NCBI GenBank assembly: GCA_000004985.1
Contig: GG738855.1
Strand: one strand, 5' to 3'
DNA: 64,000 nucleotides
Origin: Naegleria gruberi
Lineage: Eukaryota
Translations under genes and position numbers: made by a program
Shown here: one piece after another, positions 5,816-63,302 of the stretch
Position numbering within the stretch: position 1 is the first letter of the stretch
Layout of the letters: the number at the start of each line of letters is the position of its first letter
The notes under the pieces: generated by a model
Told to the model about the DNA's origin: nothing
Databases searched by the model: none
What the model saw: only the letters and a program-made list of their open reading frames with translations

Positions 5816-6243
5816 CTCGTTTGTTTTATTTGAAATAATAATGTGTGTATATATATTCGAAGAAAGTATTACTCGAGGTGTTTTTGTAGAGCAAAATTTC
5901 TTCTTCTTGAAAGATAATATTATATCTTGTGATTTGGCAAACGGTTTTTGAATTTGATTTTTTTAACCGGAATGTTGGTGATGATTGTTAATTTGCGCCA
6001 AGTTTACTTGTGCTATTTTGTGTGGTGGAAAAATGAGAGTGCTGACACTAAACATGGACAAACCAAATGGGTTGTTTGATGCTAAGAAAGTTATTGAACT
6101 CTAACAATTAATTGGCTATTCGTTTCGTTTAGTTTATTTGATGGGATAACAAAATTTCTGCTTTTAAACAGTTTGAAAATCGATCGACTTAGACAATCAT
6201 TAGTATTTAATGAGTTTCATGGATTTTCATTCAAATATGTGTG

Positions 6244-6264
6244 GGGGTCATGGCGCAGTCGGTA
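6244..6264 (+). tRNA. 5' fragment of an elongator tRNA-Met(CAU): acceptor 5' strand plus D-stem and D-loop
   Basis: The sequence ggggtca-tg-gcgcagtcggta is exactly the acceptor strand, positions 8-9, the 5' D-stem and the D-loop complementary to the 3' fragment at 7120-7171. Confidence 0.6.
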
Positions 6265-7119
6265 TTATTAATAGATTTTAGGGTAGGTAACGCTCTCAAT
6301 CTACCTCAACGTAACTTTAAATATAAACTTTATTTATTTTTAGAAAGGGTGGTTTGCGCTCTCAAGCAATGTTGCTCTTTAATGTACTGTTGCTATACTT
6401 TACATTGAATTGAATTTATTGATTAATTATTTCAACTTTTGAAGATTTCTTACTATTTTTCATACTATTAATAATTTTTAATTTTCTTTCTTTTCTTAAT
6501 TCTTCATCATATTCAATTTCTTCTGTATAAAAACTAATATCACTATAATTTAAATTTGATTGTTTGGAATAATTTGGAAAATAATTATTTTCTGATTCAT
6601 TAAATTCTTGAATTGTTTTTGATATTTTTTCAATTTCATTATCAATAAATTCATAAATTTGTTCATGTTTTTTAAAATTAATTTTCATTGATAAAATTAA
6701 ATTTAAAAATAATAATCCTTTTCTAAAAATAGATAAGGTAGGGTTGCGCTTTCATTAATACTCAACGTAACTTTTAAAATAAAAAACTTACCCAAAAATT
6801 TTACATTGAAAATTATCATCTTCAGATTTAAAATTAATTAAATTAATTTCATCTGATAAATTTGTTTCATCAATATGTTCTCTAAAATTTTCATTTGTTG
6901 TAAAAATTAAAAATGAATTTGAATTATGAATTATATCTTCTCCTAATTCATCTGAAATTTCACTAATTCTAATTATTTGTAAATTTTTAATTATTGAATA
7001 TAATCTTCCAAAATTAATACAAATTGGTGAATGTTTACAATTTGATTTAATTATAAATGTATCATTATCTTTTAAATAATAAAATTAGGTAGGGTTGCGC
7101 TCTTAAGTATATCAACGTA
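6265..7119. other. 855-bp AT-rich insertion or intervening sequence splitting the tRNA-Met gene in its D-loop, with TA/GTA at both junctions
   Basis: It lies between the two tRNA halves. It carries four copies of a ~35-nt motif, GGTAGG(G/T)T..CGCT.T…CAACGTA(A/G)C, at ~6283, ~6347, ~6736 and ~7087. It also carries an intron-containing ORF on the minus strand. Confidence 0.5.
6416..7080 (-). CDS. Hypothetical intron-containing ORF inside the tRNA-splitting insertion
   Basis: On the minus strand the reading frame …SEDDNFQCKIFG is followed by gtaagt…tttttag, a ~70-nt intron that contains one repeat copy. It then continues in frame into the 90-aa ORF MKINFKKHEQ…EIINQ*. No upstream ATG was found, so it may be a fragment or pseudogene. 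Confidence 0.3.
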
Positions 7120-7171
7120 GCGCGTAGGTCTCATAATCCTAAGGTCGTGAGTTCGATCCTCACTGACCCCA
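7120..7171 (+). tRNA. 3' fragment of an elongator tRNA-Met(CAU): D-stem 3' strand, anticodon arm, variable loop, T-arm and acceptor 3' strand
   Basis: The fragment reads gcgc-g-taggt-cTCATAa-tccta-aggtc-gtgag-ttcgatc-ctcac-tgacccc-a. The anticodon is CAT with U33 and A37, the T-loop is TTCGATC, and the 3' acceptor pairs with ggggtca at 6244-6250. A T6 run at 7174-7179 gives a Pol III terminator. Confidence 0.65.
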
Positions 7172-7179
7172 ACTTTTTT
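7172..7179 (+). terminator. Pol III oligo-T terminator after the tRNA-Met 3' fragment
   Basis: ttttttg lies 3 nt after the discriminator base. Confidence 0.5.
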
Positions 7180-7718
7180 GCTAGTTGGATCTAACAAATT
7201 CTAGAATAGCACCATTTATTGAAACAGCTTGCCATACAAATTCTCTATCTCTTTTCAAGGCATTAATCAAAATTTTGTGGTTCAAGTTTGATCGATTCCT
7301 ATGCTAATTACCTGTCATATCTAAATTGCTCTCGAACAAACCTCAATACTAACCAATCCTTGAAGGAGTTCAATGTCATTTCTCAATCTTTCAAGAAATA
7401 AACTGAATGGCTAATCCAGATGATTTCAGTCTTTCAATCACTTGATGCATATGTAAACAAGAACCAGTTCCGTCTTCTAAAGATTTATATCCATTAAAGC
7501 AGGTCTCAAGGCTGAATCACCTTAAAGGTGAAACAGTCCCTGAGCTTTAATACCCATTAGTATAATTACTTGTTCTCAATCTTGTTTTTATTAATTTGCA
7601 AGGTAACATCTTCAATTCATTAGATCCATATGAATATGATCTTGGTCTAGAATCTTATTATTCTCTGAGAAGGATTTATGTTTTGCACGATTTTGCCTTA
7701 ATTGCAACATACACACCA

Positions 7719-7801
7719 GCCCGCGTAGCAGAGTGGTCAAATGCGTAAGACTTAAGATCTTATCCCGAATGGGTTCGTGGGTTCGAACCCCACCGCTGGC
7801 A
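7719..7801 (+). tRNA. tRNA-Leu(UAA), class II with a long variable arm
   Basis: A cloverleaf can be drawn. It has acceptor gcccgcg/cgctggc (6 of 7 pairs), an A-box tagcagagtgg, D-arm gca/tgc, anticodon stem taaga/tctta with loop cTTAAga, variable hairpin cccgaatggg, T-arm gtggg-ttcgaac-cccac, a B-box ggttcgaaccc, discriminator a, and a downstream T-rich stretch. Confidence 0.75.
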
Positions 7802-8081
7802 TTTCCTTTTCTTTTTTGTTTTCTGTGCATTGGTGATGTCTTTGCAACTTGAATGGAAAGTTTTCTGAATTTGAATTATATTCTTATAGACCAGATGCTT
7901 TTCCAATAACTATAATAACTCATAAAAACAGATTCCTTCCTTGAAAAAGCTTTTAATTATATTAATTTTCCAAGAGAGAATTCAAAGAGCTATTTTCTAC
8001 ATGGCTTGTCCATTATGATTGATTCAAAACTCATAAGGTCTTTGCCTTAATTATATTTTCTTTATTTATTACAACAACTGA

Positions 8082-8830
8082 TTAATCTTTACTGATATAC
8101 CGAATTTCACAATCTTTAAAAAAAAATGAAATATAACAAAAAAATCTACACAATCCTTCTAAGGTATCTAGATTTGTGCAATATATATCAACCTCATTAA
8201 TTAATCTCTCACCCATTAGAATGAAGGCAATATAAACTCTCTCGTAATTCATCATAAAAAATAAATTATTACTTGATCTCTTGTCCACACTTTTTTCGAA
8301 ATGGTATTTCAGCATAGAAAAGAATAAATTCTTTACCTCAGTTTCATTTTCAAAATCACAATTATCCAAATTACGTTTTGAAAATTTACCATAAATATTA
8401 TTTCCAATTACAATCATTTCTTCATCCAATCAAACATTTTTTTGGTTGATACTTCTTGTTCTTTTCCTTGAGAGGAAGAAACCATTTTGATAATACTATT
8501 TCTATAATACTATCCTGAACAATATAACTCTACTGCTGTAGTATTACCCGTATGATCATATATGGTTTCCCACCACGAAGACGTCTTTTCCTCATCCAAT
8601 GAACATTTATGCAAAAATTCAACCCATGGATGTCAAGGTTCACTCTCTATCATGTCGAGAGGAATTTTATGATTAAATATTCCCAATTTTTCATTGAATT
8701 TATACTGAGGGTCTTTCTGATAAAACGTGTTTTCCTCAATTCCGAAGGTGTAAATTTGTGCATTATTTTTACTTAATTTTACAAAACTAAGGAGTGACTT
8801 AGGAATCATCCAACCATTGTGTAGGATTTA
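8082..8830 (-). CDS. Hypothetical multi-exon gene of unknown function
   Basis: 115-aa ORF MDEEMIVIGNNIYGKF… plus an upstream protein-like minus-strand reading frame (…NGWMIPKSLLSFVKLSKNNAQIYTFGIEENTFYQKDPQYKF…, …HPWVEFLHKCSLDEEKTSSWWETIYDHTGNTT…) separated by intron-like AT-rich stretches. Boundaries are not resolved. Confidence 0.3.
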
Positions 8831-9096
8831 TAAACATGTATTGATGGCTGAACAACATGAGTATTATGTCTAAATGTACACAACCTCAGCCAATAAAAAG
8901 TCATCAATTTGTTATAATAGATATATATTATGAGTGGTAAAATATTTATTTGCCAACAGTAGATGGTGATAGTTAAAATTGATCAACAATAGTTGCTCCA
9001 CAAATTGAGGATCATCCACTACTGAAGCGCTTATGAAGTTTGTCGCACAAAAACGCAATCGATTATCAACAATCATTACAAAATTCTAAAAAAAAA

Positions 9097-10290
9097 TGCT
9101 CTCTTGGTTAAATGGTGATTCAGCAAATGTTTTTTCCTTTCCGTCTAAACCAGAGGTAACAATTTTGAAGGAACCACAAAGTTCTGACTCTCCTATTATT
9201 GTTGATGGTATTAAATTATTTTCATACAAGGGTTTGTTTTAATTGCATGTCATGATGGATTGACCAGTAGTATAATAACTGTAACTCTCTTTTGTATTGA
9301 AAACTTCATCAAATTAATTATCAATCATTTGATACAAACAAACAAATGGAATTACAATGTTGGTTGGTTAATGAATCATTGAAGATATACTTGCCATTCG
9401 TGAGGAAATAGCAAACGAGGAGGATTATGAAATTCTCTATGAGGAACCTGAAAATTATCGTAAAATGTTCATCAAGAAGAGAGGAGAGGGTTCAACAGGT
9501 GAAATTAAACGACACAAATATACTAGAACAAATTTTCCATCCTCTCCAAAGGAAATGTTTGTTGCTGTTAGGGATTTTGAGAGGAGAAAGAGTTGGGATG
9601 ACAGACTGGAGGAGAGAAATGTCATGAGAGTTTTTAAATTTACTGATAAGGAGTAGGTTTCTTTTTGATGATTGGATAATCTTATCCTAAACCTATTTTT
9701 GTTATTACGGATCGATGTTATATTGTATCACAATACTACTCTACTATATTAATTACTGATGATAATTTAAATTATAACTATGATGTAAATAATTATTTAG
9801 AACTGGTAAAGTTGTTATCAATTCAATTGAGAGAACTGCACATAAGGGTGCTTTTCCTGTTCAAGGAAGAGATTTCATATCTCTTACTGGTGTTGTTATT
9901 ATGAATGAAAATCACTACTTGACTCGTTCTCATGCCCTCGAATACAGTTTACTTCCATACGCCACAAATGGAAATAAGAAGGAAAATCCACCTCCTCTTC
10001 CACAAGATAAATATGGACCTTCTGAGGGTTTCAATGGTTACATTAGAGGTTGTAACAAGTTTTTTGCAAATGAATGTTTTGGAAATGAAACAACAACTAC
10101 TTACACAACAGTTTTAGAGACTGATGTTCGTGGTTGGGTTCCATCAACAGTTTATAATTGGTTTGTAAAATTTATTCCTGCCAATGGTGAAGTCAATCTA
10201 GGAAAAGGATTGGAATGGAGAAGGACAAACTCAATTTCAAACGAATTGAATGATTTTTATTATAATATTGATTCACCATTGTTTAAATAG
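9097..10290 (+). CDS. START (StAR-related lipid-transfer) domain protein, multi-exon
   Basis: Exon segments encode …YEILYEEPENYRKMFIKKRGEGSTGEIKRHKYT…PKEMFVAVRDFERRKSWDDRLEERNVMRVF… and …GKVVINSIERTAHKGAFPVQGRDFISLTGVVIMNENHYLTRSHALEY…WVPSTVYNWFVKFIPANGEVNLGKGLEW…, which is a START/PCTP-like pattern. The exact start and splice sites are uncertain. Confidence 0.5.
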
Positions 10291-10398
10291 TGGATTACAT
10301 CCATGTAATTAATTGTATATATAGAACTATACTTGTAAATATATTCCTTTAAATTATTTGATTTTATAAATCAGTTTGTAATAAATTTCCGTTACAAT

Positions 10399-12093
10399 TT
10401 ATTTACGATTGATAAATTTTTGAATTGGAATTGCACCACTATCACTACCTGTTGCGATACATTTAATAAATTCAGTTGGTTCCAACATTGTAATATCACA
10501 AAAGTATTTAAATCTATTTGCAACATATTGAGCTTCCTTATATCCCATAAATTGAGTGAGATAGTCAACTTGTTGATCGTCCTCTTGGTAGCTTTGTTCC
10601 AATTTCTTCAAAAATGACTGGACAAGTAGTGAATTAATAAAGTGTGCTTCCTCAAAAAGTGTTGGGAACGCCTTAGAAAAGGTATAGCCCTTCTTCCATA
10701 CTGCATTTCTCTTTTGATTACTCGAGTAAATGTCCATATAATATTGATCATAATCCAAAATTAGATATTTCTCACTGTAGTACAAGGTTCTGAATCCTAC
10801 ATTATTGGAAAATACTGGCGAAACTGACAATCCAACCATGGCAAAATTATTCTTGGTGTTACCCAAATCATTAACCTTATTGGGTTGTTGGTTTCTGAAT
10901 AATCTGAATTGATCCTTATGCAAGTGACCGTACAGAATGGTGGTAATCATTTCACTATATTTTGACACAAGTGCCAAGAATTGAGATTCATACATTGGCT
11001 TCCACAATGATTTGTTATCAAATGAATTTTGACTTGCTGGAATATGGGTTACAATGTAAACAGTTACATCTCTAATTGAGAGTTCACTTCTTGCCTTTAA
11101 CAATTCCATTTCCATCCAGGCAAGTTGTCCTGATGGATCACTTGGTGGCTCAGCTCCATTTGTCATATTTGGATATCTATTCGCAGAGTATAAAAGTGAA
11201 TTTAAAACAAGAATAACCAACTTGGATTCTCTTCCCTGAGAAGTCTTGACAATTTCATACTTGTAATATCCACCCTTCAAGAAGGTATTTCTTTGATAGT
11301 CCTCAGTGAGTCCAAACATTTTTCCCCATCCAACAGGTCCAGTCCACAAACTTTGATACCAAGTCAAAGCTTCATTTCCATGATCAGGATCTTCAATATA
11401 TGGCAAATAATAATCAGGATACAAATCATTATTTCCAATGCATGGCAATATTGGCAAATCATAAACATTTAACTGTTTTGCCAAGGTAGATTGCAACATT
11501 TTCGTCACATCCAATGTATTTTGCAAAACAAATGATCCATTAGGCAAGTGATGAGCATTGTAATCTCCATTCATGACAATAAAATCTGGTAAAATTCCAT
11601 TATGCTCCCTAATAACTTGTGCAATTTGTGAAAATGTGCTTTCCACAAGTGTCTTTGGAGCATCACATCCATATCTTCCGTACATTGCATAATCAGTAAA
11701 ATTCGTATCAATTCCCTCGAAAGAAGGTGAACTAGAATTACGAATCAAAATTTTTCTCTTTTCCTCAATAAACAAAAAATCTTGGATTTTTTGTTTGGTA
11801 TTTCTCAAATGATGAAACTCTTGTTGAACACGTTCTGGCTGATTTTCCGTAACTACTTGTTGTGGTTTTCTACAAAAGTATTGATGATTAGGAATGGTTG
11901 GATCATAGAATGGATCATAGTGAATATCAGTCATCCACAAAAAGTAACCAAATGCCGATTGTTCTCCTCCTCGTGATTTTAATGATGAGAATTTATTAAC
12001 TTGTTGTGTTGTTGAACATATTGTTGAAGAAAACAACAAAATGATGAAGAAGGAGAATAAATAATTGGGTGATGATGAAACATGTTGAGACAT
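10399..12093 (-). CDS. Acid-sphingomyelinase-like phosphodiesterase (calcineurin-like metallophosphoesterase), secreted
   Basis: 564-aa ORF with an N-terminal signal peptide. It carries WMTDIHYDPFY, GDYNAHH and GHLHKDQF metallophosphoesterase motifs in the order typical of SMPD1/ASM-like enzymes. Confidence 0.8.
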   Translation of the reverse strand: MSQHVSSSPNYLFSFFIILLFSSTICSTTQQVNKFSSLKSRGGEQSAFGYFLWMTDIHYDPFYDPTIPNHQYFCRKPQQVVTENQPERVQQEFHHLRNTKQKIQDFLFIEEKRKILIRNSSSPSFEGIDTNFTDYAMYGRYGCDAPKTLVESTFSQIAQVIREHNGILPDFIVMNGDYNAHHLPNGSFVLQNTLDVTKMLQSTLAKQLNVYDLPILPCIGNNDLYPDYYLPYIEDPDHGNEALTWYQSLWTGPVGWGKMFGLTEDYQRNTFLKGGYYKYEIVKTSQGRESKLVILVLNSLLYSANRYPNMTNGAEPPSDPSGQLAWMEMELLKARSELSIRDVTVYIVTHIPASQNSFDNKSLWKPMYESQFLALVSKYSEMITTILYGHLHKDQFRLFRNQQPNKVNDLGNTKNNFAMVGLSVSPVFSNNVGFRTLYYSEKYLILDYDQYYMDIYSSNQKRNAVWKKGYTFSKAFPTLFEEAHFINSLLVQSFLKKLEQSYQEDDQQVDYLTQFMGYKEAQYVANRFKYFCDITMLEPTEFIKCIATGSDSGAIPIQKFINRK

Positions 12094-48176: not shown

Positions 48177-49064
48177 GTGGTTCTGGAAATGACCNCAGTT
48201 TCATCACAAACTAAACCCTTGGATAACAACCAAGGTGGTTCTGAAAAGAACCTAGATGCTATTCTTCACGCCATCACTTCATTGGGTGAGAGAATTAAAC
48301 ATCTTGAAGCAGTTCCACCCATCCTTCAAGAAGCTGATCAACTTGATGACAACTCTGATGAGGATTCTGCTGAAGATTCCACTGGTAAACATTGGGGTAT
48401 GTCAACAATCAAGGAGATTAGAAGACACTACGAAGTTGGCGACAGATTAGCCGATGGAGATGTCTTAAGTTTTGTTTCAGCCAAAACTCTTCGTCGTTAT
48501 CAAACCAATGATGCTCTTTTGAATAGAGTTCAATCATTAATGGCTAGATTTGAATCCGTTATTCATAATCATCGTACTCATCCCCGTTTGCAAGAAATCC
48601 AATCAAAGGGCTTGCAAAAGATGATGGAAATGTTGCATTTGAAATCTAGACTACTCCATTTCGCTTTAAGTCACCCAATGAACGTTGCTAACATCATTGA
48701 AATCACAGAATTAGTTTATCTTCTCTGTGAGGTCGAGAAAATCTTCTTGGAAGAAGGTTTGTTTGATAGTAATTTTGAGGTTGCCACCAATTTCATTCAA
48801 CCATTCGTACAGAGCAATACGTTCGCTGACATAACCGAAAAAGCACGTAGTAAGAAGAGAGAGAAAGCTGTTATCAAGACTGCTTTTGTTGGAAAGATTC
48901 AAAAACCCAACAAAATGAAAGAGAAGTTGAACAAACCCTACACTTCTCAACACAACAGCTACTCTAAGTCTTACAAGAGTAACTCCAATTTTCAAAAATC
49001 AGGAGACTCAAAACCAAAGTACAACAACAACAACGGTGGAGGATCCTTCAGCAAGGACCTCTGA
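48177..49064 (+). CDS. DIRS-like ORF1 (Gag-like)
   Basis: 295-aa ORF immediately upstream of the RT ORF and overlapping it. It is preceded by two ~55-bp tandem repeats at 48140-48250. Confidence 0.6.
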   Translation: MVLEMTXVSSQTKPLDNNQGGSEKNLDAILHAITSLGERIKHLEAVPPILQEADQLDDNSDEDSAEDSTGKHWGMSTIKEIRRHYEVGDRLADGDVLSFVSAKTLRRYQTNDALLNRVQSLMARFESVIHNHRTHPRLQEIQSKGLQKMMEMLHLKSRLLHFALSHPMNVANIIEITELVYLLCEVEKIFLEEGLFDSNFEVATNFIQPFVQSNTFADITEKARSKKREKAVIKTAFVGKIQKPNKMKEKLNKPYTSQHNSYSKSYKSNSNFQKSGDSKPKYNNNNGGGSFSKDL

Positions 49065-60020: not shown

Positions 60021-60404
60021 AGGGTTTGGGTTTGGGTTGGGTTGGGTTTGGGGTTGGGGTTGTGTTGGGGGGTTGGGGGTTTGGGTTTGGGTTTGGGTTT
60101 GGGTTTGGGTTTGGGTTTGGGTTTGGGTTTGGGTTTGGGTTTGGGTTTGGGTTTGGGTTTGGGTTTGGGTTTGGGTTTGGGTTTGGGTTTGGGTTTGGGT
60201 TTGGGTTTGGGTTTGGGTTTGGGTTTGGGTTTGGGTTTGGGTTTGGGTTTGGGTTTGGGTTTGGGTTTGGGTTTGGGTTTGGGTTTGGGTTTGGGTTGGG
60301 TTGGGTTTGGGTTTGGGTTTGGGTTTGGGTTTGGGTTTGGGTTTGGGTTTGGGTTTGGGTTTGGGTTTGGGTTTGGGTTTGGGTTTGGGTTTGGGTTTGG
60401 GTTT
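60021..60404. repeat. (GGGTTT)n telomere-like array, about 60 units; degenerate at the left and perfect toward the N-gap
   Basis: The sequence reads agggtttgggtttgggttgggttgggtttggggttgggg… and then becomes perfect gggttt hexamers up to the gap at 60405. Confidence 0.85.
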
Positions 60405-63302
60405 NNNNNNNNNNNNNNNNNNNNNNNNNNNNNNNNNNNNNNNNNNNNNNNNNNNNNNNNNNNNNNNNNNNNNNNNNNNNNNNNNNNNNNNNNNNNNNNN
60501 NNNNNNNNNNNNNNNNNNNNNNNNNNNNNNNNNNNNNNNNNNNNNNNNNNNNNNNNNNNNNNNNNNNNNNNNNNNNNNNNNNNNNNNNNNNNNNNNNNNN
60601 NNNNNNNNNNNNNNNNNNNNNNNNNNNNNNNNNNNNNNNNNNNNNNNNNNNNNNNNNNNNNNNNNNNNNNNNNNNNNNNNNNNNNNNNNNNNNNNNNNNN
60701 NNNNNNNNNNNNNNNNNNNNNNNNNNNNNNNNNNNNNNNNNNNNNNNNNNNNNNNNNNNNNNNNNNNNNNNNNNNNNNNNNNNNNNNNNNNNNNNNNNNN
60801 NNNNNNNNNNNNNNNNNNNNNNNNNNNNNNNNNNNNNNNNNNNNNNNNNNNNNNNNNNNNNNNNNNNNNNNNNNNNNNNNNNNNNNNNNNNNNNNNNNNN
60901 NNNNNNNNNNNNNNNNNNNNNNNNNNNNNNNNNNNNNNNNNNNNNNNNNNNNNNNNNNNNNNNNNNNNNNNNNNNNNNNNNNNNNNNNNNNNNNNNNNNN
61001 NNNNNNNNNNNNNNNNNNNNNNNNNNNNNNNNNNNNNNNNNNNNNNNNNNNNNNNNNNNNNNNNNNNNNNNNNNNNNNNNNNNNNNNNNNNNNNNNNNNN
61101 NNNNNNNNNNNNNNNNNNNNNNNNNNNNNNNNNNNNNNNNNNNNNNNNNNNNNNNNNNNNNNNNNNNNNNNNNNNNNNNNNNNNNNNNNNNNNNNNNNNN
61201 NNNNNNNNNNNNNNNNNNNNNNNNNNNNNNNNNNNNNNNNNNNNNNNNNNNNNNNNNNNNNNNNNNNNNNNNNNNNNNNNNNNNNNNNNNNNNNNNNNNN
61301 NNNNNNNNNNNNNNNNNNNNNNNNNNNNNNNNNNNNNNNNNNNNNNNNNNNNNNNNNNNNNNNNNNNNNNNNNNNNNNNNNNNNNNNNNNNNNNNNNNNN
61401 NNNNNNNNNNNNNNNNNNNNNNNNNNNNNNNNNNNNNNNNNNNNNNNNNNNNNNNNNNNNNNNNNNNNNNNNNNNNNNNNNNNNNNNNNNNNNNNNNNNN
61501 NNNNNNNNNNNNNNNNNNNNNNNNNNNNNNNNNNNNNNNNNNNNNNNNNNNNNNNNNNNNNNNNNNNNNNNNNNNNNNNNNNNNNNNNNNNNNNNNNNNN
61601 NNNNNNNNNNNNNNNNNNNNNNNNNNNNNNNNNNNNNNNNNNNNNNNNNNNNNNNNNNNNNNNNNNNNNNNNNNNNNNNNNNNNNNNNNNNNNNNNNNNN
61701 NNNNNNNNNNNNNNNNNNNNNNNNNNNNNNNNNNNNNNNNNNNNNNNNNNNNNNNNNNNNNNNNNNNNNNNNNNNNNNNNNNNNNNNNNNNNNNNNNNNN
61801 NNNNNNNNNNNNNNNNNNNNNNNNNNNNNNNNNNNNNNNNNNNNNNNNNNNNNNNNNNNNNNNNNNNNNNNNNNNNNNNNNNNNNNNNNNNNNNNNNNNN
61901 NNNNNNNNNNNNNNNNNNNNNNNNNNNNNNNNNNNNNNNNNNNNNNNNNNNNNNNNNNNNNNNNNNNNNNNNNNNNNNNNNNNNNNNNNNNNNNNNNNNN
62001 NNNNNNNNNNNNNNNNNNNNNNNNNNNNNNNNNNNNNNNNNNNNNNNNNNNNNNNNNNNNNNNNNNNNNNNNNNNNNNNNNNNNNNNNNNNNNNNNNNNN
62101 NNNNNNNNNNNNNNNNNNNNNNNNNNNNNNNNNNNNNNNNNNNNNNNNNNNNNNNNNNNNNNNNNNNNNNNNNNNNNNNNNNNNNNNNNNNNNNNNNNNN
62201 NNNNNNNNNNNNNNNNNNNNNNNNNNNNNNNNNNNNNNNNNNNNNNNNNNNNNNNNNNNNNNNNNNNNNNNNNNNNNNNNNNNNNNNNNNNNNNNNNNNN
62301 NNNNNNNNNNNNNNNNNNNNNNNNNNNNNNNNNNNNNNNNNNNNNNNNNNNNNNNNNNNNNNNNNNNNNNNNNNNNNNNNNNNNNNNNNNNNNNNNNNNN
62401 NNNNNNNNNNNNNNNNNNNNNNNNNNNNNNNNNNNNNNNNNNNNNNNNNNNNNNNNNNNNNNNNNNNNNNNNNNNNNNNNNNNNNNNNNNNNNNNNNNNN
62501 NNNNNNNNNNNNNNNNNNNNNNNNNNNNNNNNNNNNNNNNNNNNNNNNNNNNNNNNNNNNNNNNNNNNNNNNNNNNNNNNNNNNNNNNNNNNNNNNNNNN
62601 NNNNNNNNNNNNNNNNNNNNNNNNNNNNNNNNNNNNNNNNNNNNNNNNNNNNNNNNNNNNNNNNNNNNNNNNNNNNNNNNNNNNNNNNNNNNNNNNNNNN
62701 NNNNNNNNNNNNNNNNNNNNNNNNNNNNNNNNNNNNNNNNNNNNNNNNNNNNNNNNNNNNNNNNNNNNNNNNNNNNNNNNNNNNNNNNNNNNNNNNNNNN
62801 NNNNNNNNNNNNNNNNNNNNNNNNNNNNNNNNNNNNNNNNNNNNNNNNNNNNNNNNNNNNNNNNNNNNNNNNNNNNNNNNNNNNNNNNNNNNNNNNNNNN
62901 NNNNNNNNNNNNNNNNNNNNNNNNNNNNNNNNNNNNNNNNNNNNNNNNNNNNNNNNNNNNNNNNNNNNNNNNNNNNNNNNNNNNNNNNNNNNNNNNNNNN
63001 NNNNNNNNNNNNNNNNNNNNNNNNNNNNNNNNNNNNNNNNNNNNNNNNNNNNNNNNNNNNNNNNNNNNNNNNNNNNNNNNNNNNNNNNNNNNNNNNNNNN
63101 NNNNNNNNNNNNNNNNNNNNNNNNNNNNNNNNNNNNNNNNNNNTNGAGAAAGTTACTGAGGGAAAGATCACAAACTTTAGAATAATGTTTATTAGAACCT
63201 AAATTGTACTATTTGGAAATTAGAAGAAATTGGAATAATTGAATGGAATGAGAAAGAGAAAGAAAAATATCAAGAAACCAACTTATCATGACTAAATATT
63301 GA

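What the first reader, a model, noticed from the sequence alone, without database searches (positions are those of the whole stretch)
6244..7179. Elongator tRNA-Met(CAU) gene split in its D-loop by an 855-bp insertion that carries a 4-copy motif and an intron-containing ORF
A 21/21-nt 5' fragment (acceptor, positions 8-9, D-stem, D-loop) lies at 6244-6264. A complete 52-nt 3' fragment (D-stem 3' strand to the discriminator, plus a T6 terminator) lies at 7120-7171. They are collinear on the same strand and reconstitute a full cloverleaf when joined. The interruption sits at a TA/GTA in the D-loop, with gta present at both junctions. This is not the canonical 37/38 eukaryotic tRNA intron position. 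The insert contains four copies of a ~35-nt motif GGTAGGgTtgCGCTcT…CAACGTAAC. Two are subterminal in direct orientation, and one sits inside a 70-nt spliceosomal-type intron of a minus-strand ORF. Possible explanations are a novel element that targets tRNA D-loops, a disrupted tRNA pseudogene, or a non-canonical intron or split tRNA arrangement.
Basis: seen in the sequence. Interest (0 to 1): 0.8.

Follow-up and report, generated by a model that had tools for sequence, protein, structure and literature searches.

The report
tRNA-Met gene killed by AT-rich insertion
One of the roughly 900 tRNA gene copies of the amoeba Naegleria gruberi was cut in two by an 855-bp piece of very AT-rich, foreign-looking DNA; it is most likely a recently inactivated tRNA copy, not a new kind of tRNA intron.

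Summary
Bases 6244-6264 and 7120-7171, once joined, form a perfect 73-nt elongator tRNA-Met(CAU) with a T6 terminator. They are separated by exactly 855 bp, with GTA at both junctions. The window is Naegleria gruberi nuclear DNA.

The insert cannot act as a tRNA intron. It has 18 runs of four or more T on the tRNA strand, two of them T6. No bulge-helix-bulge forms in any splice register. The A and B boxes lie about 890 bp apart.

The insert is the most AT-rich stretch of the window (20% GC). Its minus strand carries a real but 5'-truncated coding sequence of 199 codons with no ATG and no detectable homolog. Third-position GC is 1-7%, against 20-43% in host genes. A canonical 69-nt GTAAGT...TAG intron interrupts it in frame.

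The "35-nt motif" is the core of a ~68-bp intron-shaped unit present four times. One copy ends at the left junction and one is truncated at the right junction. The copies differ by 19-25% while the tRNA halves are undamaged, so the segment arrived ready-made and recently.

Best reading: one multicopy tRNA gene (924 tDNAs reported) was inactivated by a single insertion. The class and source of the insert remain open because the rest of the genome could not be searched.

The parts
6244..6264 (+). tRNA-Met(CAU) 5' fragment: acceptor 5' strand, U8-G9, D-stem 5' strand and D-loop up to A21. It contains the A box.
6262..6264 (+). GTA at the left junction, which is G19-U20-A21 of the tRNA.
   Evidence: It is duplicated at 7117-7119.
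6265..7119 (.). 855-bp insert, 20.2% GC, the most AT-rich 855-bp stretch of the window.
6265..6334 (-). Repeat unit copy 1, full length. On the minus strand its 3' end (...ATCTATTAATAA) coincides with the left tRNA junction. The 3' splice-site AG is lost.
6335..6412 (-). Repeat unit copy 2, degenerate (GTAAAGT...GAGAGCGCAAACCACCCT...AAAG).
6416..6722 (-). Exon B of the minus-strand coding sequence (101 codons plus 1 nt) with its TAA stop at 6416-6418. GC3 is 0.07.
6723..6791 (-). Repeat unit copy 3. It is a 69-nt spliceosomal-type intron (GTAAGT...TTTTTAG) that joins exons A and B in frame and contains the GC-rich core AAGCGCAACCCTACC.
   Evidence: Host introns have the same shape.
6792..7084 (-). 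Exon A of the minus-strand coding sequence (97 codons plus 2 nt). It has no ATG and is open up to a stop at 7085-7087. GC3 is 0.01.
7069..7119 (-). Repeat unit copy 4. It lacks the first ~22 nt of the unit (the 5' splice-site part) and ends at the right tRNA junction inside the conserved CAACGTA(AC) box.
7117..7119 (+). GTA at the right junction. It belongs to the unit consensus CAACGTAAC, so it is either a 3-bp microhomology or a 3-bp target duplication.
7120..7171 (+). tRNA-Met(CAU) 3' fragment: D-stem 3' strand, anticodon arm, variable loop, T arm with the B box, acceptor 3' strand and discriminator A.
7174..7179 (+). T6 RNA polymerase III terminator of the tRNA gene.

Best explanation
This is a copy of the Naegleria gruberi elongator tRNA-Met(CAU) gene that one recent DNA insertion between D-loop position 21 and D-stem position 22 has inactivated.

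The inserted 855 bp arrived as a ready-made segment from a donor with a very different base composition. It carries the 3' part of a protein-coding gene on the opposite strand: 199 codons, third-position GC near zero, and one canonical 69-nt spliceosomal intron. It also carries four diverged copies of a ~68-bp intron-shaped unit with a GC-rich core.

The segment is truncated at the end that would hold the gene's start, inside a repeat unit. There it is joined to the tRNA through a 3-bp identity (GTA). This is the signature of end-joining capture at a break, or of a 5'-truncated insertion of a mobile element.

RNA polymerase III cannot make a tRNA from the locus, because the A and B boxes are torn about 890 bp apart and the insert is full of T-run terminators.

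Shown: the split, the composition, the coding signal, the repeat structure, and the lack of intron features. Inferred: a single event, its recency, the end-joining or truncation mechanism, and loss of function.
For: - Organism: an ORF of the window is 100% identical to an N. gruberi protein.
- Split: the joined halves give a perfect tRNA-Met and nothing is detected when they are unjoined.
- Not transcribable as one unit: 18 runs of T>=4, including T6 at 6625-6630 and 6668-6673, lie on the tRNA strand.
- No bulge-helix-bulge: the best central helix is 3/4 pairs with flanking helices of 2/4 or fewer.
- Composition: 20.2% GC against a window mean of 33.9% (sd 3.1), the lowest in the window.
- Real coding sequence: at most 3 stops in 222 codons was never reached in 3000 shuffles. 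GC by codon position is 0.26/0.22/0.00 and 0.24/0.20/0.07. GC3 of 25 host ORFs is 0.20-0.43.
- Intron: 69 nt, GTAAGT...TAG, in frame, the same shape as host introns.
- Age: the units differ by 19-25% from each other (alignment), whereas all 21 stem pairs except the usual 31-39 U.U, and the D- and T-loop signature bases, are intact in the tRNA halves. The repeats therefore diverged before arrival.
- Tolerable loss: N. gruberi has 924 tDNAs (PMC2888827).
Against: - Perfect preservation of both tRNA halves could also reflect selection for a function rather than youth.
- The left end of the insert coincides with the end of a repeat unit and the right end lies inside another. That fits an element with defined, repeat-marked ends better than a random captured fragment, although the units cover about 30% of the insert.
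- No donor locus, second copy or homolog was found, so the source is unknown.
- There are no terminal inverted repeats, no poly(A) and no recognisable transposase or reverse transcriptase, so no mobile-element class is identified.
- The genome outside this window could not be searched.
Confidence: 0.62

Rival explanations
1. The insert is a copy of a so far undescribed N. gruberi mobile element, or a non-autonomous derivative, whose ends are marked by the ~68-bp units. It may have a preference for tRNA genes, either by sequence (GGTA|GCGC in the D arm) or by tethering to the Pol III machinery. The GTA would then be a 3-bp target-site duplication.
For: - Direct repeat units sit at both ends, and the left terminus coincides with a unit boundary.
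- A 3-bp duplication flanks the insert.
- The unit core starts GGTAG...GCGC, which resembles the target GGTAGCGC. In Dada transposons, sub-terminal repeats mimic the target and terminal inverted repeats are absent (PMC3706591).
- The composition and codon bias are unlike host genes.
Against: - There are no terminal or sub-terminal inverted repeats at the ends.
- The ORF has no transposase, RT or endonuclease similarity.
- The right-hand unit is truncated rather than complete.
- No other copy was found in 64 kb of this genome or in about 70 kb of N. fowleri and Willaertia loci.
- The only other tRNA gene in the window is intact.
- A genome with 924 tDNAs makes accidental hits likely.
Confidence: 0.22
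2. The 855 bp is a functional non-canonical tRNA intron, or the two halves are expressed separately and joined, as in archaeal, red-algal or nucleomorph disrupted tRNA genes. In that case the locus still yields tRNA-Met.
For: - The halves are collinear, on the same strand and completely undamaged.
- Position 21/22 lies in the region where ectopic introns occur in other lineages (PMC3728597, listed).
Against: - 18 T-run terminators lie on the sense strand, the first only 12 nt into the insert.
- No bulge-helix-bulge forms in any of 16 registers.
- The sequences next to the two junctions are direct repeats, not complementary.
- The size of 855 nt is far above known nuclear tRNA introns.
- The 5' half has only an A box and the 3' half only a B box.
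- The insert carries a coding sequence on the other strand.
Confidence: 0.03
3. The arrangement is an assembly artefact, or is present on only one haplotype of this polyploid strain, so the split does not represent the functional state of the locus.
For: The same window contains an internal telomere-repeat block followed by a 2.7-kb gap, so this scaffold contains at least one questionable join.
Against: - The two halves fit exactly, with a 3-bp overlap, at a distance of 855 bp.
- There are no Ns or low-complexity sequence at the junctions.
- A chimeric join would not restore collinearity on the far side.
Confidence: 0.05

Closest known systems
tRNA pseudogenes created by insertion of mobile or captured DNA in multicopy tRNA gene families
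   Same: One copy of a highly multicopy gene is interrupted by unrelated DNA. The flanks are otherwise intact, there is a short junction identity, and there are no processing signals.
   Different: The inserted DNA belongs to no recognised repeat family. It has a codon bias foreign to the host and contains four intron-shaped repeats.
Dada DNA transposons (target-specific for tRNA, U1 and U6 genes; PMC3706591)
   Same: Insertion lies inside a small-RNA gene. Terminal inverted repeats are absent. Short sub-terminal repeats resemble the target.
   Different: Dada makes 6-7-bp duplications, has sub-terminal inverted repeats and encodes a DDE transposase. Here the duplication is 3 bp, the repeats are direct, and no transposase is present. 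Dada is known from animals.
Ectopic BHB-dependent tRNA introns and split or permuted tRNA genes (Archaea, Cyanidioschyzon merolae, nucleomorphs; PMC3728597, PMC3978253)
   Same: The interruption lies outside position 37/38, in the D arm, and the halves are collinear.
   Different: Those introns are short, fold into a bulge-helix-bulge and are transcribed with the tRNA. This insert is 855 nt, has no BHB and is full of Pol III terminators.
Introners / introner-like elements (PMC9860276)
   Same: Several similar, short, GT...AG-bounded units occur in one transcription orientation. One of them is a perfectly in-frame intron of a coding sequence.
   Different: Only four diverged copies are seen, all within 855 bp. 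The published survey scored N. gruberi NEG-M as lacking introners. Mobility was not shown.
Filler-DNA capture (organellar, viral or genomic fragments) at double-strand breaks by end joining
   Same: A single foreign-composition fragment, a junction with 3-bp microhomology, no terminal repeats, and a truncated gene.
   Different: No donor was identified. One fragment end coincides with a repeat-unit boundary. The ORF matches no known organellar or viral protein.

Membership tests
Eukaryotic elongator tRNA-Met(CAU) gene (intact, functional) | A contiguous cloverleaf detectable by tRNA finders | tested here: not met
   ARAGORN and Rfam find nothing at 6244-7171 in the native sequence. The 3' fragment alone scores 25.6 bits, below the 29-bit threshold. 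The cloverleaf is recovered only after deleting 6265-7119.
Eukaryotic elongator tRNA-Met(CAU) gene (intact, functional) | Internal A and B box promoter at tRNA spacing, with no internal T-run terminator | tested here: not met
   The A box (~6251-6261) and B box (~7150-7160) are about 890 bp apart. 18 runs of T>=4 lie between them.
BHB-type (endonuclease-spliced) non-canonical tRNA intron | Bulge-helix-bulge: a 4-bp helix flanked by two 3-nt bulges that carry the splice sites | tested here: not met
   All 16 combinations of splice register and bulge phase were enumerated. No register had a 4/4 central helix, and the flanking helices paired at 3/4 or fewer.
BHB-type (endonuclease-spliced) non-canonical tRNA intron | A mature spliced tRNA is present in the cell | not testable with these tools
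   No RNA data are available.
Split tRNA genes (Nanoarchaeum type) | Complementary trailer and leader sequences next to the two halves | tested here: not met
   The sequences next to the junctions are direct repeats of one another. Folding of mini-precursors gives only AU-rich chance pairing.
Dada transposons | 6-7-bp target-site duplication | tested here: not met
   Only GTA (3 bp) is duplicated.
Dada transposons | DDE transposase, or clear derivation from an element that has one | tested here: not met
   No Pfam, PHROG, PDB or sequence-database match was found for the ORF.
Dada transposons | The same insertion site in many copies of the target gene | not testable with these tools
   The N. 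gruberi genome is not in any searchable collection. The exact-protein look-up of the N. gruberi protein itself found nothing, and three further look-ups of window ORFs also found nothing.
Cut-and-paste DNA transposon / MITE | Terminal inverted repeats | tested here: not met
   None of the 25 longest of 57 inverted pairs, the only ones listed, joins the two termini.
Non-LTR retrotransposon insertion (5'-truncated) | Reverse-transcriptase-related ORF and a poly(A) or simple-repeat 3' tail | tested here: not met
   The ORF has no RT similarity. On the minus strand the 3' end is ...CTATTAATAA, with no A run. An intron is retained. The truncation with microhomology is compatible, however.
Introners | Many near-identical introns in unrelated genes of one genome | tested here: inconclusive
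   There are four copies at 75-81% identity, all inside the insert, and none elsewhere in the window. The published survey lists N. gruberi NEG-M without introners. The whole genome was not searchable here.
NUMT (nuclear copy of mitochondrial DNA) | Sequence identity to the mitochondrial genome | tested here: inconclusive
   The ORF matches no protein in 5.8 billion, a set that includes NCBI nr. This argues against a mitochondrial gene. The mtDNA sequence itself could not be compared. The AT content and GC3 near zero are mitochondrion-like.

The most novel reading that the evidence does not exclude
The ~68-bp GT...AG units are a small family of mobile, intron-forming elements (introner-like). 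They belong to an AT-rich selfish or horizontally acquired element of Naegleria, and their GC-rich core (GGTAG...GCGC) directs insertion into the GGTA|GCGC site of tRNA D arms. That would be a DNA-level, tRNA-specific element of a new type in a heterolobosean.
Probability: 0.07. Interest if true: 0.7.

Novelty: new member of a known kind. Interest (0 to 1): 0.3.

Why it matters
As it stands the finding matters little. It is a dead copy among about 900 tRNA genes, and it shows that tRNA finders miss such copies.

The insert itself is the interesting part. It is a real, intron-bearing coding fragment whose codon bias (GC3 about 0-7%) is unlike any host gene in the window, and it is studded with four intron-shaped repeats. 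If the genome holds more copies, this would point to an undescribed AT-rich mobile or horizontally acquired element in Naegleria, and possibly to intron-generating repeats in a genome reported to lack them.

Tried and rejected
- Organism guesses: I first took the window for a ciliate, because of the (GGGTTT)n telomere repeats, and considered an IES. This was rejected because long ORFs use the standard code with TAA stops. I then suspected a dictyostelid with tRNA-targeting retrotransposons. This was rejected when an ORF proved 100% identical to an N. gruberi protein.
- Homology of the insert ORF: a word-index search of 5.8e9 proteins found nothing. Full phmmer on 1.84e9 representatives gave one hit, P0017. 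P0017 is a BRCA2-repeat protein whose score is the sum of 13 near-identical ~30-bit matches, which is not credible. Pfam, PHROGs and PDB sequences gave nothing above threshold. AlphaFold gave pLDDT 44, so no fold search was run.
- Other copies of the motif: the metagenome scan gave two hits in one unrelated coding sequence. IMG/VR gave five single chance hits, and the ORF had no relative there. Prokaryote genomes gave eight scattered hits against about 30 that I estimate by hand would occur by chance. N. fowleri and Willaertia loci gave none.
- Synteny: the orthologue of the neighbouring phosphodiesterase gene in N. fowleri and Willaertia has no tRNA gene within 10 kb, so there is no empty-site comparison.
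- Exact-protein look-ups for N. gruberi contigs failed.
- Internal tandem duplication of unit plus exon was rejected.
- Rfam at E<=10 shows no snRNA, snoRNA or rRNA identity for the units.
- U12-type intron, Helitron, CACTA and solo-LTR readings were considered from the terminal sequences and dropped, because the termini do not fit.

Full report
**Source of the window.** The window has 32% GC, and its long ORFs use the standard code and end in TAA. The ORF at 10399-12093(-) is 100% identical over 564 residues to a predicted protein of Naegleria gruberi. The next hits are N. fowleri (44% identity) and Willaertia magna. The window is therefore N. gruberi nuclear DNA.

**Check of the observation.** The sequence at the stated coordinates is as described.
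- Joining 6244-6264 to 7120-7171 gives a 73-nt sequence that ARAGORN calls tRNA-Met(cat). All acceptor, D-stem and T-stem pairs are intact and there is a single U.U at 31-39.
- It has G1-C72, a TTCGATC T loop and no run of three G-C pairs in the anticodon stem. From general knowledge of initiator identity elements, it is an elongator tRNA.
- In the native sequence, neither ARAGORN nor Rfam at gathering threshold reports a tRNA there. Only tRNA-Leu(TAA) at 7719-7801 is found. The 3' fragment alone reaches 25.6 bits against a threshold of 29.
- A T6 run follows at 7174-7179.
- The insert is exactly 855 bp, and GTA occurs at both junctions.
- The 16-nt motif core occurs three times with up to 3 mismatches, against 0.05 expected, and nowhere else in the 64 kb. 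A fourth copy is found by repeat search.

**Can the insert be a tRNA intron?** No, for four reasons.
- The tRNA strand of the insert has 18 runs of four or more T. The first starts 12 nt after the junction, and two runs are T6, the same length as the gene's own terminator.
- I enumerated all four splice registers allowed by the GTA ambiguity, each with all bulge phases. None gives the 4-bp helix flanked by two 3-nt bulges that the splicing endonuclease needs.
- The sequences next to the two junctions are direct repeats of each other. They cannot form the leader-trailer helix of split tRNA genes.
- The A box and B box are about 890 bp apart. That this is too far for TFIIIC-dependent transcription is an inference from established knowledge of Pol III promoters, not tested here.

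**Anatomy of the insert.**
- Composition. At 20.2% GC it is the most AT-rich 855-bp stretch of the window, whose mean is 33.9% with sd 3.1.
- Open reading frame. The minus strand carries two open stretches of 98 and 111 codons in the same frame, separated by three stops that all lie in motif copy 3. A frame with at most three stops in 222 codons was never reached in 3000 shuffles, where the minimum was 5 and the mean 12.9.
- Coding periodicity. GC at codon positions 1/2/3 is 0.26/0.22/0.00 and 0.24/0.20/0.07. This is genuine coding sequence.
- Foreign codon bias. Its GC3 of 1-7% lies far outside the 20-43% (mean 31%) of the 25 long host ORFs in the window. RIP-like decay would not leave 199 codons open, so the bias looks native to the donor.
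- Intron. The interruption is a 69-nt GTAAGT...TTTTTAG segment (6723-6791) whose removal joins the two stretches in frame. Host introns in the window have the same shape and size.
- Truncation. The first stretch has no ATG and is preceded by stops, so the coding sequence is cut off at its 5' end.
- Homology. Nothing credible was found. The 5.8-billion-protein search gave no hit. The full HMMER search gave one hit, a BRCA2-repeat protein whose E-value comes from summing 13 near-identical 30-bit matches. Pfam, PHROGs and PDB sequences gave nothing above threshold. The structure model is unreliable, with pLDDT 44.

**The repeats.** Aligned on the minus strand, the motif is the core of a longer unit of about 68 bp: GTAAGTTTTTTATTTTAAAAGTTACGTTGAG-N10-GAGCGCAACCCTACCTTATCTATTTTTAG. 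The unit is intron-shaped.
- Copy 3 is the intron itself.
- Copy 4 (7069-7119) lies just upstream of exon A and ends in ...TTTAAAAG. It lacks the first ~22 nt of the unit and stops at the right tRNA junction inside the conserved box CAACGTA(AC).
- Copies 2 and 1 lie in tandem after the stop codon.
- Copy 1 ends exactly at the left tRNA junction.

The GTA at the right junction therefore belongs to the unit, and the GTA at the left junction belongs to the tRNA. This is either a 3-bp microhomology or a 3-bp target duplication. There are no terminal inverted repeats, no poly(A), and no tandem duplication of unit plus exon.

**Order of events (inference).** The unit copies differ from one another by 19-25%. 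The now useless tRNA halves show no damage at any paired or signature position. If the units had multiplied in place, the tRNA halves should have decayed to a similar extent. The segment therefore arrived already assembled, and recently.

**How it most likely works.** One copy of a multicopy gene suffered a break or an integration at GGTA|GCGC. A pre-existing AT-rich segment, truncated within a repeat unit, was joined in with a 3-bp overlap. The copy can no longer be transcribed as a tRNA. N. gruberi is reported to have 924 tDNAs (PMC2888827), so the loss is harmless and a chance hit on a tRNA gene is not remarkable.

Whether the segment is captured filler DNA or a truncated copy of a mobile element cannot be decided here. 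Both ends lie in repeat units, which favours an element. The absence of any transposition hallmark and of any second copy favours capture.

**Comparison with known systems.**
- Dada transposons insert in tRNA and snRNA genes and lack terminal inverted repeats. They make 6-7-bp duplications and encode a DDE transposase (PMC3706591). Both features were tested here and not met.
- Ectopic tRNA introns of red algae and archaea need a bulge-helix-bulge. This was tested and not met.
- Introners are families of similar introns. Here there are only four local copies, and the published survey lists N. gruberi NEG-M without introners (PMC9860276 supplement).
- A nuclear copy of mitochondrial DNA would fit the composition. 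But the ORF matches no known protein, and a spliceosomal intron is not a mitochondrial feature.

**Searches for other copies.** All were negative or at chance level: the window, N. fowleri and Willaertia loci, metagenomes, IMG/VR, and prokaryotic genomes. The orthologous neighbourhood in N. fowleri and Willaertia has no tRNA gene, so no empty site could be examined.

**Verdict.** The exotic readings, a new intron type or a split tRNA, are not supported. The locus is a recently inactivated tRNA-Met gene copy. What remains of interest is the unidentified insert, with its foreign codon bias and its four intron-shaped repeats. One BLAST against the complete genome would settle its nature.

Noticed in passing
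window 60026-60405, then Ns to 63144: About 380 bp of (GGGTTT)n with irregular GGGTT/GGGGTT variants at the inner end, G-rich strand pointing right. A ~2.7-kb run of N follows, and then unrelated coding sequence. It looks like a chromosome-end telomere repeat that was scaffolded to another piece, which would put the tRNA locus about 53 kb from a chromosome end.
   Followed up: partly
window 7719-7801 (+): An intact tRNA-Leu(TAA) gene (57.8 bits) lies 548 bp downstream of the broken tRNA-Met on the same strand. It carries no insert and no motif copy.
   Followed up: yes
window 6738-6751, 7089-7102 (minus-strand reading GAGCGCAACCCT): The GC-rich core of the repeat unit is identical over 12 nt to what I recall as the universally conserved bacterial/organellar SSU rRNA segment around position 1100, the complement of the common 1100R primer. 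This came to light through primer lists in a literature search. Weaker resemblance extends on both sides. Rfam gives no rRNA hit. It may be chance, and it is unexplained.
   Followed up: partly
window 7184-7654 (-): Three open stretches in one frame lie between the two tRNA genes. The last one (7184-7303) matches DUF4116 at 24.8 bits, just under the 24.9 cut-off. It is probably a decayed fragment of a DUF4116-repeat gene that abuts the tRNA-Met terminator.
   Followed up: partly
window 48213-48257 (-): A sub-threshold match to the histone 3' UTR stem-loop (24.7 bits against a gathering score of 34, E=0.014).
   Followed up: no
window 9837-9919 (-): A sub-threshold C/D-box snoRNA (snoR1) match, 26.4 bits against 49. 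It overlaps the 5' end of the START-domain-like ORF at 9901-10290.
   Followed up: no
window 5816-10398: A 4.6-kb gene-poor interval holds both tRNA genes and only short or decayed ORFs, while the rest of the window is densely packed with long ORFs.
   Followed up: no
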